A program made the position numbers. From assembly GCF_056746865.1 (NCBI RefSeq), contig NZ_CM163382.1: a stretch of 64,000 nt of DNA. One strand, given 5' to 3'. This document shows positions 1 through 5,373 of the stretch, piece by piece. How positions within the stretch are numbered: the first letter of the stretch is position 1; each line of letters begins with the position of its first letter.

Positions 1-3000
1 GCGCGCTGAGAAATACTGTGGCTAAGATTGGGGCGACAAGAAGTGGTAGGTATGCGATAGAGAAAGCCGTTCAGGAAGCTACAAAAGCAGTGCGCGCAGG
101 GGCATCACCAGCAGCGATCGCCGCAGCAGAGAAACGATTTTCGGCCAATAAAATTGCCATGAAAGCAATTCGTGATGCCGTTGGGGCTGAAGAATTCGTG
201 AAACTGACAAGGGCCGGGATTGTAGCTACCCTCAGTGGCATGAAAGATGTTAGCGAATGGGAATAGACGCTCTAACTAACAAAACCATAATAGCCAAGGA
301 CGGCATACTGATATTGAGCCAACTATCAAAATTCCATATCACATTACGGGCCTGTGGCTTACATTCGCTTACAGTGATGATAATTTATAACCACGCAATT
401 CTTAGGTGAGATTATCATGATTAAAAATCTTCTTTTAATATTATCCCTGTCATTATTGGCTGGATGCGTACAAAAACCGTTAGTAACGGTCAATGCTTTA
501 TCTTCCGGGCAATCTGTCGGTAAGAAGTTCTTGATCATCCCCGCAAGCCAAGAACTTTGGAACACCAAACAGATTGAATACACTCAAATAGCTACGGTAG
601 TAGCCGCCAGTTTATCAAGCCAAGGATATACACAAGTTAAAGATGAAAAATTGGCTGACCAGGTAATTCTCTTGAACTTTTTGAGAAGCGGGGCCATTTC
701 AAATACTCGTAATGTAACCATCCCAATATACGGGCAAACTGGTGTGAGCTCAGCAACAACGTACGGAAACTCGAACACCACGTTCAATAGTTATGGTGGT
801 GGCTACGGTACAGCTAATACCACTGGAACGGCAACAACAGTTTATACGCCTACTTATGGAATTACTGGCGCGTATAACACAACTGTGACGGACACGTTCT
901 ACGGCGCAGGGGTGATACTCCAGTCGTTTGATGCCAAGGCTTATCTCAATAATAGGCAGATTAATATGTTATGGAAAGTTGGTAGCTCAGTCGTCTCGCA
1001 ACAGTCTGATGGAATTGCTGATTACAAGGGGTTGGCGAGAATAGCCGCTAGCTATGCCGGGAAAAATACAGAAGGTGATATAACTTTTAATGTTGACCCT
1101 AAAGCACCAAATTAACTAATAAGCCCGGTACGCCGGGCATTTATGCCCCTATTATTCATGAATCGCTTTTTCTAGAAGGTATGCGACAAACGTTAAGTGA
1201 CATTGCCTACACATTCGGGGCGGGATTTCAAATCCGCTCCCAGTTGATGGGGGGCGTTACAGTACGCGCATATCCGCTTTATGTGAAACAGGAAGATTTT
1301 TCTGATATCACTGCCACAGCAAAACACCAATTTCGTGACCAGTACGCGCGCGAGGGGCATCAGTTGCAAAAAGTTTTGCAACTGCGTCCGACCAGTACAC
1401 ACACGATGGCGGTGGATACCATAAAACTGTTCTCTACATGAGACAGAGTGGTGGTGATGTGTTGATTATCGGCGTATATGCGCACAGGTCGCGCTATGAC
1501 GATGTTTTATGCGGGTACACCAATCACATGTATCTGATGTGATAAATCGCGTTACATGACCTCTCTGTTGTGCTGGTGGTTATCACGACGTTCTGAATCT
1601 GGCTTTTGTCTGATATTTTGCGACAAGTACGCGCGCGTAGCATCGACAGCATACACATTGGATATTCATTTTGTGACCAATGCGATAAGTAGCGGGATAA
1701 GCATTGATAAAATCAACAGGCCGATGATCCACTTTTGATTTTCACTGGCCTTATCTCTATTTTCATCAATCTTATCCATAATTCGACGCTCCAAGCCGTG
1801 CATATCACCGCGAATGGCAATTATCTCATTGCGAACATCCGAGAAGTGGTTGGCTTGATGTTCAATGTGTGGCGTTCTGCCTTTCATGCCTGATCCTCAC
1901 CCATCGTCACCACCTGCTGGTGTATAAAGGTATTGGCCCAAGCAGCTTTCCAATGGGCACTCATGTTTATACGCTGACCTTACAATCAATCACCGCTTTT
2001 AACTTTTCAGCATTGCTTCCCTGACGCTTCCACGCGCTGTAAATATCTTTATCCCACGCTTTACCAGCTTTTGTTTGATAGCCTGCTTCATTGATCCGTT
2101 CAGCTATCACACGCCCATTATCAAATCCCTGTTGGATGGTATCGGCAATGATCTTTATAACTGCCGTTTCGTTATATGGCTTTGGTGGGATGTTCGACTT
2201 TCCGGCAATAAGCGACGCAGCGGCTTTTTCCATGCGCTCCACCAGCCCAAGCATTCGTGAATCAATAGACTTTTCCGGCTGTCCCAGCTTCATGCGAATC
2301 GCATCAACAAGCCAGGAGGTTTTATCCCCTCCAGAAGCGAGAACAGACCGATTAAACTCATCCTGCAATTCAGATGGGATGCGGAACGCGACCAGATTAG
2401 ATTTGCTCATTGCAAAGACCATATCAGTGAGTAATATCCATACAGTATACCACTGTATAACACTGTTATACGCTCAAATATCAGCCAGAAAATAACGAAC
2501 CAATCACAAATCTATCGCTGTGTTGTTGGTTCAGAGCTGGGCTGTGTTGGTTCAAAATGAGTTGATGTTGGTTCAATATTTTAGAAAAAACGCAATAAAA
2601 ACAACGATCTTTACAAATTGAACCAACTGAACCAACTGAACCAACACCTTTTTGCTTATCTATATAATCTGAGAGGCAGAAATGATAAGGGACAGGAAAG
2701 CTGAAGAGCTGGAGTCAAAAGGGCTATACCGGAGAGCTGCCGCACGATGGGCAGAAGTCATGATGCTGGCAGATGGCGATAAAGAACGTGAACATGCAGC
2801 AAACAGACGCTCTGAATGTATCCGTAAGGCGGCACGCCCACCAGCAACTACAGACAAATTCGGAGATTTAAGACAGGCAGTTAAGCGGACTCATTCGGCT
2901 CTTGGTATGGATGAGGAAGCGAGAGGGTACTTCAGGCGTTATCGCGATAAAGATTGCCAGAGACAGTAATGCTCTATCTGTTTTGGCAAATTACCCCTCA

Positions 3001-5373
3001 CTTTGAAGGGATCGGAGCTATAAAAATGGTGTTATCCGGCTTCCTGCATTGCAGGTTTTCGAAAAAATCAATGGGTTAGGTCATCGTGCAAATTTGCACT
3101 CTGCCAGCCAACGCAATTTCTCGTTGGCGAAAATATCAGGTATTTACTGATTCTGCCGCCTCACAAGGATGCGAGAACCTTATAAAACCTAATATCGCAG
3201 AGCTTAATTGTGTACAGCAATTTCACGAGCAATACGCGCGCGCAGGACAACAAGCCTGAACATGGTTACACACCTCGATCGTGAGGGATGTAGGCAATGG
3301 CTTCTGACCAAAGCACCCGAAAAAACCGTGTACATAAGGGTGTACATAATCAAAAATCGCATTAGGAAGAAACCAGATACAATGCGGCATTGAAGCCAAT
3401 ACTCTACAAACAGATCCAAACTCGTAACGCCAATTCTTCCTTTTCAGCCTTCACAAATGCCGCCCACTCAAACAGAGCGGCATTTTTCCTCCCCGCAACA
3501 TTCAATTCTGTTTTGCGTGCCTGCTCCAGATTTTGCGATGTTTTTTTGCCCAGCGCAGTGAGAACGTGAGATACTTACAACTGTATATAAACACAGTTGT
3601 AGACTTACTTTCCTTGCAATCGATATCACATGGAGTGGGCAATGAACGAACATCATCAACCTTTTGAAGAGATAAAGCTGATTAATGCAAACGGAGCAGA
3701 ACAATGGTCAGCAAGACAACTTGGAAAACTACTGGGTTATTCAGAGTATCGTCACTTTATACCTGTATTAACGCGCGCCAAAGAAGCTTGTCTGAATAGT
3801 GGTCACACAATTGATGACCATTTCGAGGAGATCCTCGATATGGTCAAAATTGGCTCAAATGCCAAAAGAGCATTAAAAGACATCGTACTCTCCCGCTATG
3901 CCTGTTACCTGGTAGTACAAAACGGCGACCCTGCGAAACCGGTTATTGCGGCAGGGCAAACTTATTTTGCTATCCAGACCCGACGGCAGGAGCTGGCTGA
4001 CGATGAAGCTTTCAGGCAACTTCGTGAAGACGAAAAGCGTCTTTTTCTGAGAAATGAGTTGAAAGAACATAACAAACAATTAGTTGAGGCAGCGCAGCAA
4101 GCTGGGGTAGCGACAGCTATCGATTTCGCCATATTTCAGAATCATGGTTACCGGGGACTGTATGGTGGATTAGATCAGAAAGCTATCCATCAGCGGAAGG
4201 GGCTGAAAAAGAGTCAGAAGATCCTGGATCATATGGGTTCAACAGAACTGGCGGCTAATCTCTTTCGAGCTACCCAAACAGAAGAAAAACTCAAGCGGGA
4301 TGGCGTGAATTCAAAACAGCAAGCTAACACCACACACTTTGACGTGGGTAGCAAGGTGAGGCAAACCATTCAGGAACTTGGCGGAACCATGCCTGAGGAG
4401 TTGCCGACCTCGCAGGTCAGCATCAAGCAGTTGGAAAACAGTGTAAAAATTACAGAGAAGAAATAGCAGAAACTAAAAACTCTTTTTGTTGATTGAGATA
4501 CCCGATGCGTAAGCCAAAGTCCAGGTGCGGTGAACACAATGGCTAACATTGCACCTTTCTTTTCCACCCCTCAGTTTTAACCTACTTTTTCTTATGTATT
4601 TTCTCAGACAAGAAGTCAGAAGAATGCATCTACGCTACAGAAAACAACGATTTCACATAACTAAAAATTATCAATTTCCTCTCACCTTAAAAAATCTCAA
4701 TCGTGACAATGCGTACAAATCGCTACCCTGCCAGACAGATTTTTAGGGAGATAACCATGCTGTTACACATTTTGTATTTGGTTGGCATTACTGCCGAAGC
4801 CATGACGGGGGCGCTGGCGGCCGGACGACGGCGCATGGATACATTTGGCGTAATTATTATTGCGACCGCCACGGCAATTGGCGGAGGGTCAGTGCGCGAT
4901 ATTCTGCTGGGCCACTATCCGCTCGGCTGGGTCAAACACCCGGAATATGTGATTATTGTCGCTACCGCCGCAGTACTCACCACTATCGTTGCTCCTGTAA
5001 TGCCTTACCTGCGCAAAGTGTTTCTGGTGCTCGATGCGCTCGGACTGGTGGTCTTTTCTATCATTGGCGCACAGGTTGCGCTGGATATGGGACACGGCCC
5101 GATCATTGCCGTTGTCGCAGCTGTGACGACCGGCGTATTTGGCGGCGTTTTGCGCGATATGTTCTGTAAACGCATCCCACTGGTATTCCAGAAAGAGTTG
5201 TATGCCGGTGTCTCATTTGCCTCCGCCGTGCTGTACATCGCGCTGCAACACTATGTTTCTAACCATGATGTGGTAATTATCTCCACCCTGGTATTCGGCT
5301 TTTTTGCCCGCTTACTGGCGCTACGCCTTAAGCTGGGATTACCGGTCTTTTACTACAGCCACGAAGGTCACTA

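What the first reader, a model, noticed from the sequence alone, without database searches (positions are those of the whole stretch)
1..3600. Prophage-like accessory segment upstream of dinD in place of the expected K-12 neighbour
In K-12 dinD is preceded by yicC as far as I recall. Here the preceding 3.6 kb instead holds a lipoprotein gene, an XhlA-like small membrane protein, an RHH protein, a PerC-family activator and several hypothetical ORFs. PerC homologs are typically prophage-borne activators of virulence loci in pathogenic E. coli, so this may be a degraded integrated element carrying a regulator. No integrase is present in the window.
Basis: partly seen in the sequence, partly recalled or inferred. 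Interest (0 to 1): 0.45.

Follow-up and report, generated by a model that had tools for sequence, protein, structure and literature searches.

The report
Right end of a phage satellite
The 3.4 kb in front of dinD is not a decayed prophage. It is the tail end of a roughly 19-kb phage-parasitising "satellite" island of the EcCIMP1 family (described in 2025) that inserted recently behind yicC, and it carries short repeats that look like borrowed phage packaging signals.

Summary
K-12, and strains 100% identical to this window over the next 19 kb, have yicC directly next to dinD. Here window 1-3419 is foreign DNA. It holds a lipoprotein gene, a small tail-anchored membrane protein, a probable ribbon-helix-helix (RHH) protein and a true PerC-family gene (Pfam E=1.3e-33).

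The interpretation needs correcting. This is the attR-proximal end of an EcCIMP1-like phage-inducible chromosomal island (PICI). In related genomes the whole ~19-kb element sits at the same site, with the integrase next to yicC.

The window also contains:
- the attR arm with paired integrase arm-type sites;
- an attR core shortened by 11 bp;
- a six-copy iteron cluster matching one just downstream of the satellite's primase gene;
- three direct copies of a ~28-nt motif matching the small-terminase gene of the helper-type phage, at the position where P22 has its pac site.

There is no XhlA profile match, and two of the "hypothetical ORFs" look non-coding. The closest tested PerC-like homologue (54% identical) represses the LEE virulence island rather than activating it. 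This window carries the eip/eilA/air island, not LEE.

Verdict: a new member of a known kind. The packaging-signal lead is testable.

The parts
1..266 (+). 3' end of the last ejection-protein gene of the satellite (P22 gp16-like, with an N-terminal lytic transglycosylase domain; 906 aa in relatives)
   Evidence: The annotated CDS in strain 4750 covers this stretch. phrog_770 'DNA transfer protein': 5.2e-121 for the full protein and 2.7e-07 for the window fragment. About 70% DNA identity to ejection genes of the P22-like phages CUS-3 and epsilon34.
417..1115 (+). Outer-membrane-type lipoprotein, 232 aa, predicted as an LptE/PelC/TraT/DUF4136-like domain plus one very long beta-hairpin. Candidate exclusion protein.
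1217..1646 (.). Conserved 430-bp non-coding segment shared by all variants of the satellite. It lies between two recombination breakpoints.
   Evidence: Breakpoints at 1217 and 1646. 94-97% identity in 12 related loci. Variable sites are spread evenly over codon positions of ORF 1181-1441. No CDS is annotated here in RefSeq relatives.
1330..1352 (+). pac-like repeat, copy 1 (ATTTCGTGACCAGTACGCGCGCG)
   Evidence: Direct-repeat families D1-D3. In relatives the same copy reads AATTTCGAGACAAGTACGCG, 19/20 identical to a terS variant.
1615..1637 (+). pac-like repeat, copy 2 (ATTTTGCGACAAGTACGCGCGCG). The variable cargo slot begins just after it.
   Evidence: 17/18 identical to Kapi1 18875-18892, inside the small terminase gene. 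The breakpoint with EcCIMP1 is at 1646.
1666..1887 (-). 73-aa tail-anchored membrane protein (cargo). Function unknown.
   Evidence: ORF and C-terminal hydrophobic helix. phrog_6324, unknown function, 7.3e-11. No Pfam hit at E<=10, so not XhlA by profile. No PADLOC hit.
1967..2410 (-). 147-aa protein with a probable N-terminal RHH (Arc-like) DNA-binding segment and a confidently folded C-terminal helical domain. It occupies the slot where EcCIMP1 has alpA_1.
   Evidence: A family of about 143 aa found across Enterobacterales; one source names it 'Arc-like DNA binding domain'. AF2: residues 80-147 have pLDDT >90, with no PDB match. Window 1647-2523 has no counterpart in EcCIMP1, where the alpA_1 (helix-turn-helix) gene lies between the lipoprotein gene and perC. 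A Klebsiella homologue lacks the 73-aa partner.
2440..2475 (.). Operator-like palindromes upstream of the 147-aa gene (ACAGTATACCACTGTATAACACTGTTATAC)
   Evidence: Read from the sequence. A similar block, GTATAACAGTGTTATACAGTGGTATACTGTATAG, lies upstream of the Klebsiella homologue although the flanks differ.
2525..2645 (.). Iteron cluster: three TGAACCAAC on the minus strand at 21-nt spacing, a 43-nt A+T-rich spacer, then three tandem TGAACCAAC on the plus strand. Second copy of the satellite's putative origin (P4 ori/crr-like). The last iteron adjoins the likely perC -35 region.
   Evidence: Six exact copies, all in this stretch; 0.55 expected in 64 kb. Each satellite has exactly two such clusters, one just downstream of the primase gene and one upstream of perC; none in Kapi1 or P22. 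Alignment.
2682..2969 (+). PerC-family small regulator (95 aa). The N-terminal 23 residues are identical to EcCIMP1_025 and the rest is diverged.
   Evidence: PF06069 1.3e-33. phrog_994 2.5e-37. ANR NF033650 1.9e-05, 24.4 bits against a cut-off of 32. 54% identity to EcCIMP1_025. Many genomes match only up to 2765, which lies inside the gene.
3020..3080 (+). 60-nt remnant of a lambdoid roi / antirepressor gene
   Evidence: 83% identity to roi of HK620, H-19B and Stx phages. A 25-nt exact match to Kapi1_032 at 13227-13251.
3220..3242 (+). pac-like repeat, copy 3 (ATTTCACGAGCAATACGCGCGCG), about 180 bp from the element end
   Evidence: The same third copy is present in strains 4750 and T309.Ta3. 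In EcCIMP1 it lies directly after perC.
3328..3348 (+). Two direct GTGTACATA repeats: integrase arm-type binding sites of the attR arm
   Evidence: The only two copies in 64 kb; 0.29 expected. Related TGTACA-containing repeats lie next to int in attL of strains 4750 and T309.Ta3.
3411..3421 (.). attR core remnant, CAGATCCA followed by AA(C). Host sequence resumes at 3419/3420. 11 bp of the 21-bp core are missing.
   Evidence: Full core CAGATTCAGAAYATYGAATAA (the last 21 bp of yicC) is duplicated at attL and attR in strain 4750. Empty site in 118UI. Core variants with 2, 5, 9 and 11 bp missing occur in other strains.
3581..3596 (.). LexA box of dinD (CTGTATATAAACACAG). Host sequence, untouched by the insertion.
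   Evidence: Read from the sequence. Identical in the empty site of 118UI. Lies within the inverted repeat reported.
3642..4466 (+). dinD (host gene, right-hand neighbour of the insertion)
   Evidence: Annotated dinD in relatives. Bro-N domain 8.8e-08.

Best explanation
Window 1-3419 is the attR-proximal end of an EcCIMP1-family phage satellite (PICI) of about 19 kb. A tyrosine integrase inserted it into the last 21 bp of yicC, and the element supplies a replacement yicC 3' end at attL.

Shown:
- Insertion relative to near-identical strains, the junction sequence, and homology to EcCIMP1.
- The PerC family assignment.
- The repeats and their statistics.

Inferred from relatives and from the published EcCIMP1 work: the unseen left part carries int, an AlpA-type master regulator, antirepressor, Ash, a P4-alpha-like primase and P22-type ejection-protein genes. 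A P22-like (HK620/Kapi1-type) helper phage induces excision, replication and transfer.

Proposed roles of the pieces in the window:
(a) The two TGAACCAAC clusters are binding sites for the satellite's primase-helicase. This would be an origin plus a second cis site, as in P4 ori/crr. Confidence about 0.6.
(b) The three direct ~28-nt repeats are copies of the helper's pac site, lifted from the terS gene. They would let helper terminase package the satellite by the headful (two ~20-kb copies per ~40-kb head) without any satellite-encoded packaging protein. Cargo sits between and after them. Confidence about 0.5.
(c) The lipoprotein forms a TraT/PelC-like ring in the outer membrane and acts in exclusion. 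Confidence about 0.3.
(d) The 147-aa protein is an autoregulated DNA-binding regulator.
(e) The PerC-like protein is a small ANR/PerC-type modulator, not a dedicated virulence activator.
(f) The 11-bp loss in the attR core probably impairs excision in this strain. Confidence about 0.5.
For: Insertion:
- The empty site yicC|dinD is present in K-12 and in 118UI, which is 100% / 99.998% identical in the flanking core.

Family:
- Window 1-1646 is 98.2% and 2524-2765 is 87.7% identical to EcCIMP1 in MP1.
- EcCIMP1 excises, circularises and is transduced only with helper Kapi1 (PMC11773190).
- Complete elements occupy the same site in strain 4750 (int 4545-5804 through PerC) and in T309.Ta3.
- 180 of 5426 genomes have this attR arm next to dinD.

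att:
- A 21-bp duplication at attL/attR in strain 4750.
- Arm-type GTGTACATA pairs.

Iterons.

pac-like repeats:
- Three copies in every element examined.
- In an 18-mer scan allowing one mismatch against Kapi1, the right ends of the three elements gave only two classes of hit. One class was the repeats, all hitting Kapi1 18875 inside terS; the other, absent from EcCIMP1, was the roi remnant. Chance expectation is 0.3 hits per scan.
- 19/20 identity to a terS variant.
- The terS site encodes EDFRDKYA in the context W..AKHEDF. This aligns with P22's annotated pac (EDLSEVV in W..RLREDL).
- The same codons are conserved across this TerS family.
- T309.Ta3 (satellite at yicC) and MP1 each carry a terS 100% identical to Kapi1's. 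EC31, a 100% core relative of the window, carries one at 99.5%.
- Published precedent: SaPIs place accessory genes between pac and the island end (PMC12829572).
Against: - The window starts inside the element, so int, attL and the replication and regulatory genes of this particular copy are unseen. Completeness is inferred from relatives that are only 97-98% identical.
- The window's own repeat copies match Kapi1 terS at only 17/20. That level also arises by chance: several unrelated 17/20 hits appear. The strong matches come from sister elements.
- The motif encodes a conserved TerS peptide. The similarity could therefore be relic coding sequence rather than a recognised site.
- No pac site has been mapped for HK620/Kapi1-type phages, to my knowledge.
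- Only 2 of 21 EcCIMP1 carriers had a Kapi1-like prophage, and transduction was inefficient.
- EcCIMP1 did not protect non-lysogens. That argues against a constitutively acting exclusion lipoprotein.
- The iteron clusters lie between divergent genes and could be transcriptional operators.
- Similarity of the lipoprotein to TraT is at fold level only; the Pfam TraT hit is E=0.091, below the cut-off.
Confidence: 0.88

Rival explanations
1. One reading: a degraded prophage remnant that has kept a PerC-type activator of virulence genes (the type III secretion island or the adhesin).
For: The PerC family assignment is solid. The segment contains phage-related sequence: the end of an ejection gene, a roi remnant and phrog hits. 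The attR core is damaged. A type III secretion-related island and the giant adhesin Air lie 20-35 kb downstream.
Against: Complete relatives at the same site have the PICI gene set and no capsid, terminase, tail or lysis genes. The sister element EcCIMP1 is experimentally mobile. Both att arms, the iterons and the regulators are conserved, which is not decay. The closest tested PerC-like protein represses LEE1, and others are inert. The window has no LEE.
Confidence: 0.06
2. The three ~28-nt repeats are not packaging signals. They are relics of a terS gene fragment that act as, or were left by, homologous-recombination joints where cargo cassettes are swapped.
For: Copy 2 sits exactly at the breakpoint to EcCIMP1, and copy 3 follows the second cargo slot. 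The motif is simply the coding sequence of a conserved TerS peptide. Another phage-gene relic (roi) lies nearby. The window's own copies match terS only at chance-level stringency.
Against: Similarity among the three copies is confined to about 28 nt with no flanking terS homology, so one specific short stretch was retained three times. All copies are in one orientation in every element, including variants with different cargo and different ejection modules. The position corresponds to the mapped P22 pac. A 28-nt stretch is short for RecA-dependent exchange.
Confidence: 0.3
3. The TGAACCAAC clusters are operator arrays for a satellite or helper transcription factor (for example AlpA, Ash or a late activator). 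They would co-regulate the ejection operon and the divergent cargo/perC promoters, rather than act as replication iterons.
For: Both clusters lie just upstream of operons in the same relative orientation. The last repeat adjoins the likely perC -35 region. The 21-nt spacing, two helical turns, is typical of regulator arrays.
Against: The layout is inverted sets of repeats flanking an A+T-rich spacer, placed directly downstream of the primase gene. That is the usual origin layout of SaPIs and PICIs, and P4 needs two distant iteron regions, ori and crr (own knowledge). The same 9-mer recurs in a Klebsiella element.
Confidence: 0.3
4. The segment is ancestral E. coli DNA that K-12 and others have lost.
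For: Parts of the segment occur in 557 of 5426 genomes.
Against: The empty site is a clean yicC-stop|CTCGTAACG junction in strains otherwise 100% identical to the window. The occupied site shows a 21-bp target duplication and integrase arm sites. G+C is about 8 points lower than the core. Copies occur at several chromosomal sites, up to 6 per genome.
Confidence: 0.01

Closest known systems
EcCIMP1, the PICI of E. coli MP1 mobilised by the P22-like phage Kapi1 (Pick, Stadel & Raivio, ISME J 2025, PMC11773190)
   Same: Same backbone: AlpA-type regulator, antirepressor, Ash, TOPRIM/DUF927 primase, DUF2824/gp7/gp20/gp16-like ejection genes, the same lipoprotein family, the 430-bp segment and a PerC-like gene near the right end. 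Window 1-1646 is 98% identical. Both have two iteron clusters and three pac-like repeats.
   Different: Different integrase and att site: the yicC 3' end with a 21-bp core, against tRNA-Thr with a 10-bp core. The slot holding alpA_1 in EcCIMP1 holds the 73-aa and 147-aa genes here. The PerC-like protein is only 54% identical, diverging after residue 23. EcCIMP1 has extra cargo (pRiA4b ORF-3 family) beyond perC. The attR core here lacks 11 bp.
Classical Gram-negative PICIs (EcCICFT073, EcCIEDL933)
   Same: Integrase, AlpA, primase, PerC-like gene, small size, helper dependence (as summarised in PMC11773190).
   Different: According to PMC11773190, EcCIMP1 lacks the capsid-morphogenesis and terminase genes and the packaging module of the well-characterised PICIs. 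The complete relatives examined here likewise show none. Instead the family carries P22-type ejection-protein genes and terS-derived repeats. That lambda-type helpers, cos sites and Rpp are what the classical PICIs use is my own knowledge.
Satellite phage P4
   Same: P4-alpha-like primase (phrog_1139, 6.4e-179), Ash-family and AlpA-type proteins, and a tyrosine integrase. Two separated iteron regions recall P4 ori and crr (own knowledge). P4 carries its helper's packaging site (cos), the principle proposed here for pac.
   Different: No psu, delta or sid in the annotated relatives. The helper type is a P22-like podovirus, not P2. Headful rather than cos packaging is inferred.
P22 late-operon end: genes 14-7-20-16, then sieA / mnt / arc / ant (the immI region)
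   Same: Same order in kind: ejection genes, then an envelope protein, then minus-strand membrane and RHH genes facing a plus-strand small regulator. Kapi1 likewise has signal-peptide proteins, a coiled-coil 'XhlA-motif' protein and Arc-family genes after its ejection genes.
   Different: No detectable sequence similarity between the window proteins and Kapi1. The resemblance is organisational only.
SaPI pac sites and PICI-mediated lateral transduction (PMC12829572)
   Same: Accessory genes lie between the packaging site and the island end. Packaging from an unexcised island carries downstream chromosome.
   Different: SaPIs encode their own TerS. No TerS gene is seen here, and the site would be recognised by the helper's TerS. 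Nothing has been tested in this family.
TraT surface-exclusion lipoprotein, with PelC, CsgG and DUF4136 lipoproteins
   Different: The sequence is below Pfam thresholds for TraT and DUF4136. The hairpin is much longer (about 40 residues per strand). TraT's transmembrane helices are not evident. Oligomerisation and any exclusion activity are untested.

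Membership tests
EcCIMP1-like PICI (phage satellite) | Nucleotide homology to the EcCIMP1 backbone | tested here: met
   Window 1-1646 is 98.2% and 2524-2765 is 87.7% identical to EcCIMP1 in MP1. Both the strain 4750 element and EcCIMP1 carry the same lipoprotein homologue, WP_000594596.1.
EcCIMP1-like PICI (phage satellite) | Integrase at one end, AlpA-type regulator next to it, primase/replicase in the middle | not testable with these tools
   These genes lie upstream of the window. They are present in the complete elements at the same site in strains 4750 and T309.Ta3, which are 97-98% identical to the window segment.
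EcCIMP1-like PICI (phage satellite) | Flanking att repeats and clean insertion relative to an empty site | tested here: met
   Empty site in 118UI and K-12. A 21-bp duplication in strain 4750. In the window, attR is present with arm-type sites but a core shortened by 11 bp. attL was not seen.
EcCIMP1-like PICI (phage satellite) | No capsid, terminase, tail or lysis genes | tested here: met
   None in the window segment or in the complete relatives. The only virion-related genes there are ejection proteins.
EcCIMP1-like PICI (phage satellite) | Helper-phage-dependent excision, replication and transfer | not testable with these tools
   Shown experimentally only for EcCIMP1 with Kapi1 (PMC11773190).
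PerC family (PF06069) | Profile match above the curated threshold | tested here: met
   E=1.3e-33, 115.5 bits against a cut-off of 22.6, covering 89 of 90 profile positions.
PerC family (PF06069) | Activation of ler/LEE1 transcription, the activity that named the family | not testable with these tools
   The 54%-identical EcCIMP1_025 represses LEE1-lux, and two other PICI homologues were inert. The window has no LEE.
ANR (AraC negative regulator) family, NF033650 | Profile match above the curated threshold | tested here: not met
   24.4 bits against a cut-off of 32, E=1.9e-05, residues 5-52. Related, but below threshold.
XhlA (PF10779) | Profile match | tested here: not met
   No Pfam family at E<=10 for the 73-aa protein. 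Only phrog_6324, of unknown function.
Ribbon-helix-helix (Arc/MetJ) DNA-binding proteins | Profile or fold match to an RHH domain | tested here: inconclusive
   No Pfam RHH hit. phrog_30270 at 2.9e-4 over residues 5-49. One source names a homologue 'Arc-like DNA binding domain'. The monomer AF2 model is weak in the N-terminus, and RHH domains fold as dimers.
TraT (PF05818) / DUF4136 (PF13590) lipoproteins | Profile match above threshold; lipoprotein with the family fold | tested here: inconclusive
P4-like satellite | Core set int, alpha primase, AlpA, Ash/epsilon, plus psu-delta-sid | tested here: not met
   Relatives have int, AlpA-like, Ash and alpha-like primase. No psu, delta or sid is annotated; P22-type ejection genes stand in that part of the element.
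Prophage (intact or degraded) | Phage structural, terminase and lysis genes, or their remnants | tested here: not met
   None in the window or in the complete relatives, apart from ejection proteins and a 60-nt roi relic.

The most novel reading that the evidence does not exclude
The three terS-derived repeats are functional pac sites. On this reading the family needs no packaging protein of its own: the helper's small terminase starts headful packaging on the satellite, and two ~20-kb copies fill one ~40-kb head. In strains like this one, with a truncated attR core, the island cannot leave. Packaging would then start in situ and run rightwards into the chromosome. The locked satellite would become a launch pad for lateral transduction of dinD-ligB-spoT-recG-selC and the eip/eilA/air island. 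The recurrent 2-, 5-, 9- and 11-bp deletions at the crossover point would be the scars of such locking.
Probability: 0.18. Interest if true: 0.7.

Novelty: new member of a known kind. Interest (0 to 1): 0.4.

Why it matters
As handed over, the finding is ordinary. It is one more copy of a satellite family published in 2025, sitting at a different attachment site with different cargo.

Its value lies in what the right end shows. The EcCIMP1 authors stated that the packaging mechanism and the source of superinfection immunity are unknown. This segment offers concrete, cheaply testable candidates for both:
- a thrice-repeated 28-nt copy of the helper's terS sequence, at the position of the P22 pac site;
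- a conserved TraT/PelC-like lipoprotein.

It also points to a two-site iteron arrangement like that of P4, and to recurrent damage of the attR core. It corrects the tempting assumption that a PerC-family gene near a secretion island must be a virulence activator.

Tried and rejected
- Rfam scan of 1-3700: only a meaningless miRNA hit at E=0.59.
- Promoter/terminator consensus scan: fewer promoter-like sites than shuffles gave. The only notable terminator-like hairpins lie after the lipoprotein gene.
- PADLOC on all six ORFs: nothing.
- NCBIfam: only the sub-threshold ANR hit.
- tblastn of the window proteins against Kapi1: no real similarity, so the parallel with the region after Kapi1's ejection genes is organisational only.
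- Short-query BLAST of the repeat against the phage collection: uninformative chance hits.
- Exact 16-mer scan of IMG/VR: mostly unrelated contigs. It was still useful, because it showed the motif encodes a conserved TerS peptide and it recovered further satellites.
- 20-mer scan at >=17/20: chance hits are common at that stringency, so the window's own copies are not significant by that test alone.
- Foldseek of the 147-aa model against PDB: no match with E<=0.001.
- Search for analogous repeats in a Klebsiella relative (L171): none convincing.
- Literature searches for a mapped Kapi1/HK620 pac site and for open-access P4 ori/crr papers found nothing usable. Those points rest on my own knowledge.
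- The idea that the 11-bp attR deletion is a private mutation or sequencing error was rejected: T309.Ta3 and SCU-306 share it.

Full report

Yes. In K-12 MG1655, yicC (b3644) is followed 220 bp later by dinD. The core of this window belongs to a lineage well represented in RefSeq. Window 3630-23000 is 100% identical to strain 118UI and at least eleven other genomes, and 22512-64000 is 99.998% identical to 118UI. In 118UI, yicC again sits directly before dinD.

Aligning the empty site with the window shows that host sequence resumes at window 3419/3420 (...GAATAA|CTCGTAACGCC...). The foreign segment is therefore 1-3419. Positions 3420-3629 are the unaltered dinD upstream region, including the LexA box at 3581-3596.

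G+C is 0.40-0.47 in the segment and about 0.52-0.55 in the neighbouring core genes. The full segment is rare. Fifteen of 5426 complete E. coli genomes hold at least 80% of 1-3650, and 35 hold at least 80% of 1-2980.

**2. Gene content**

- ORF 417-1115 has a lipobox.
- ORF 1666-1887 (minus strand) is a 73-aa tail-anchored membrane protein.
- ORF 1967-2422 (minus strand) is a 151/147-aa protein with an RHH-looking N-terminus.
- ORF 2682-2969 is a bona fide PerC-family protein: PF06069, E=1.3e-33.
- Positions 1-266 are the end of a 906-aa ejection / lytic-transglycosylase gene.

The "XhlA-like" label fails: there is no Pfam hit at E<=10. ORF 1181-1441 is not annotated in RefSeq relatives, and its polymorphisms fall 13/11/9 on codon positions 1/2/3. 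It is probably not a gene.

**3. What the element is**

Strain 4750 carries the closest full-length match: 98% coverage at 97.6% identity. There the segment is the right end of a ~19-kb insertion between yicC and dinD. The gene order is tyrosine integrase, an AlpA-type helix-turn-helix regulator, AntA/B antirepressor, Ash-family protein and a 918-aa TOPRIM/DUF927 primase (phrog_1139, 6.4e-179). These are followed by homologues of P22 genes 14, 7, 20 and 16 (phrog_651, 598, 917/2534, 770), and then the lipoprotein, the two minus-strand genes and PerC. There are no capsid, terminase, tail or lysis genes.

A literature search found the match: EcCIMP1 of E. coli MP1 (PMC11773190). It is a 19,963-bp PICI that excises, circularises and is transduced only in the presence of the P22-like phage Kapi1. 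MP1's element has the same backbone. Window 1-1646 is 98.2% identical to it and 2524-2765 is 87.7% identical.

EcCIMP1 sits at tRNA-Thr with a 10-bp core. The present family member uses a different integrase and site. A second variant at the yicC site, in T309.Ta3, has a different ejection module and different cargo, which shows how modular the family is. In total, 180 of 5426 genomes have this attR arm beside dinD, and 557 have some part of 1-2980 somewhere.

**4. Attachment site**

In strain 4750 the last 21 bp of yicC (CAGATTCAGAAYATYGAATAA) are present at both ends. The attL copy carries element-type bases, so the element supplies the 3' end of yicC.

The window holds two GTGTACATA repeats at 3328-3348, the only copies in 64 kb. 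Related repeats lie next to int at attL. These are the expected arm-type integrase sites.

The window's attR core is only CAGATCCA followed by AACTCG, so 11 bp are missing. This is not a private error, because T309.Ta3 and SCU-306 share it. Other strains lack 2, 5 or 9 bp, and every deletion starts right after CAGATTCA. Such nested deletions at one point look like recurrent scars at the strand-exchange site. They probably reduce excision, which is an inference.

**5. Iterons**

TGAACCAAC occurs six times in the window, and all six lie in 2525-2645. Three are on the minus strand 21 nt apart, followed by a 43-nt A+T-rich spacer and three tandem copies on the plus strand. The expectation for 64 kb is 0.55.

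Each satellite examined has exactly two such clusters. One lies immediately downstream of the primase gene and one, inverted, lies upstream of perC. Kapi1 and P22 have none. Inverted iteron sets flanking an A+T-rich stretch next to the replicase gene is the usual SaPI/PICI origin layout. A second distant iteron region recalls P4 ori/crr (own knowledge). A transcriptional-operator role is the alternative, since the last repeat adjoins the likely perC -35 region.

**6. pac-like repeats**

A ~28-nt motif, (A/T)ATTTYGNGASMARTACGCGCGCG, occurs three times in direct orientation at 1330-1352, 1615-1637 and 3220-3242. The same three copies are present in strain 4750, EcCIMP1 and T309.Ta3. Similarity among the copies is confined to the motif. 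Copy 2 marks the breakpoint where cargo differs from EcCIMP1.

I scanned Kapi1 because P22-like phages keep pac inside the small-terminase gene. The scan found one related site, GATTTTCGCGACAAGTACGCGAAGG, at 18874-18896 inside terS (Kapi1_046). I then ran an unbiased 18-mer scan allowing one mismatch. The right ends of the three elements hit Kapi1 only at that terS site and, for the window and strain 4750, at a roi-gene relic. Shuffled sequence gave 0.3 hits per scan.

Among 80 IMG/VR loci with this TerS type, a variant reads GAATTTAGAGACAAGTACGCG. That is 19/20 identical to copy 1 of the sister elements. The terS site encodes EDFRDKYA in the context W-LAKHEDF. P22's annotated pac (NC_002371, 4-25) encodes EDLSEVV in W-RTYRLREDL, so the two sites look positionally equivalent although the proteins are not alignable by BLAST.

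Caveats:
- The window's own copies match at only 17/20, a level that chance also reaches.
- The motif is the coding sequence of a peptide conserved across this TerS family.
- No pac site has been mapped for this phage type.

I rate the pac reading at about 0.5. It would explain how a satellite with no terS, rpp or capsid genes gets packaged, which the EcCIMP1 authors left open. The sizes fit: two ~20-kb copies per ~40-kb head. It would also match the published pattern that SaPI cargo lies between pac and the island end. Helper availability is plausible. T309.Ta3 and MP1 each carry a terS 100% identical to Kapi1's, and EC31, a 100% core relative of the window, carries one at 99.5%. Overall, 229 genomes have a full-length copy.

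**7. The proteins**

*147-aa protein.* It belongs to a ~143-aa family spread through Enterobacterales. Its C-terminal domain is confidently predicted but has no PDB match. Conserved palindromes lie upstream. A Klebsiella homologue lacks the 73-aa neighbour, so the two are not an obligate pair.

*PerC-like protein.* It is 54% identical to EcCIMP1_025, identical for 23 residues and then diverged. Many genomes match only up to 2765, inside the gene. EcCIMP1_025 represses LEE1, and the authors suggested ANR-like action. The window protein also gives a sub-threshold ANR hit.

**8. Context in the window**

The rest of the window carries selC and the eip/eilA/air island, not LEE. A PerC-to-LEE circuit therefore cannot operate locally. 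Any effect on eilA or air is untested.

**9. Verdict**

It is wrong in kind, because this is a satellite rather than a decayed prophage, and the "virulence activator" role is unsupported.

The element is a new member of a known, recently described family. The additions made here are the yicC attachment site, recurrent attR-core deletions, paired iteron clusters, terS-derived repeats and a TraT/PelC-like lipoprotein. All are sequence-based leads that make the family's open questions on packaging and immunity directly testable.

Noticed in passing
window 3411-3421; L001, L006, L175-L178: The attR core of yicC-inserted satellites exists in at least five lengths across strains: the full 21 bp, and versions lacking 2, 5, 9 or 11 bp. 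Every deletion starts right after CAGATYCA. This looks like recurrent damage at the strand-exchange point.
   Followed up: partly
L001 15098-20266; L006 (minus strand) 5536-9107; L005 5981-11149: Satellites of this family carry their own P22-type ejection-protein genes (gp14/7/20/16-like). Different variants carry different versions; T309.Ta3 has only two, of another type. This suggests that the satellite's own ejection proteins, rather than the helper's, go into the virion. Only the last 266 bp of this module lie in the window.
   Followed up: partly
L025 / L131 (IMGVR_UViG_3300045988_004969): One metagenomic contig joins a Kapi1-like terS-to-needle structural module (90% identity) to the satellite's 430-bp segment with pac-like copies 1 and 2. 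It is either a real phage carrying that segment or a chimeric assembly across the shared ejection genes.
   Followed up: partly
window 3020-3080: A 60-nt relic of a lambdoid roi / antirepressor gene, with a 25-nt exact match to Kapi1_032, sits between perC and pac-like copy 3. It is probably a trace of past exchange with a phage.
   Followed up: partly
window 2682-2969, breakpoint near 2765: perC appears chimeric. The promoter and first ~28 codons are shared widely, while the C-terminal two thirds come in different alleles. Many genomes match only up to 2765.
   Followed up: partly
slots after window 1646 and between 2969 and 3220, compared with H4-H16, L005, L006: Related elements carry different cargo in these two slots: ImmA/IrrE metallopeptidase, Abi-family protein, pRiA4b ORF-3 family protein and alpA_1. 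The slots behave like defence or accessory hot spots. The window's version has no recognisable defence system (PADLOC negative).
   Followed up: partly
window 3630-4466 (dinD): dinD itself has a phage-type Bro-N domain (8.8e-08), and the profile windows covering it are 0.44-0.46 G+C against about 0.52-0.55 in the neighbouring core genes. It may be an old horizontally acquired gene.
   Followed up: no
window about 37170-41840: Long array of ~291-bp tandem repeats at 81-87% identity. By correspondence with 118UI it lies inside the giant inverse-autotransporter adhesin gene (EaeX/Air). It was seen as self-offset BLAST hits.
   Followed up: no
L171 4860-4962 (Klebsiella element): The same TGAACCAAC iteron appears in a Klebsiella island that also encodes the 143-aa RHH-family protein, a large TMP_3-domain protein and DprA/SLOG-like cargo. 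The replication module therefore seems to span genera.
   Followed up: no
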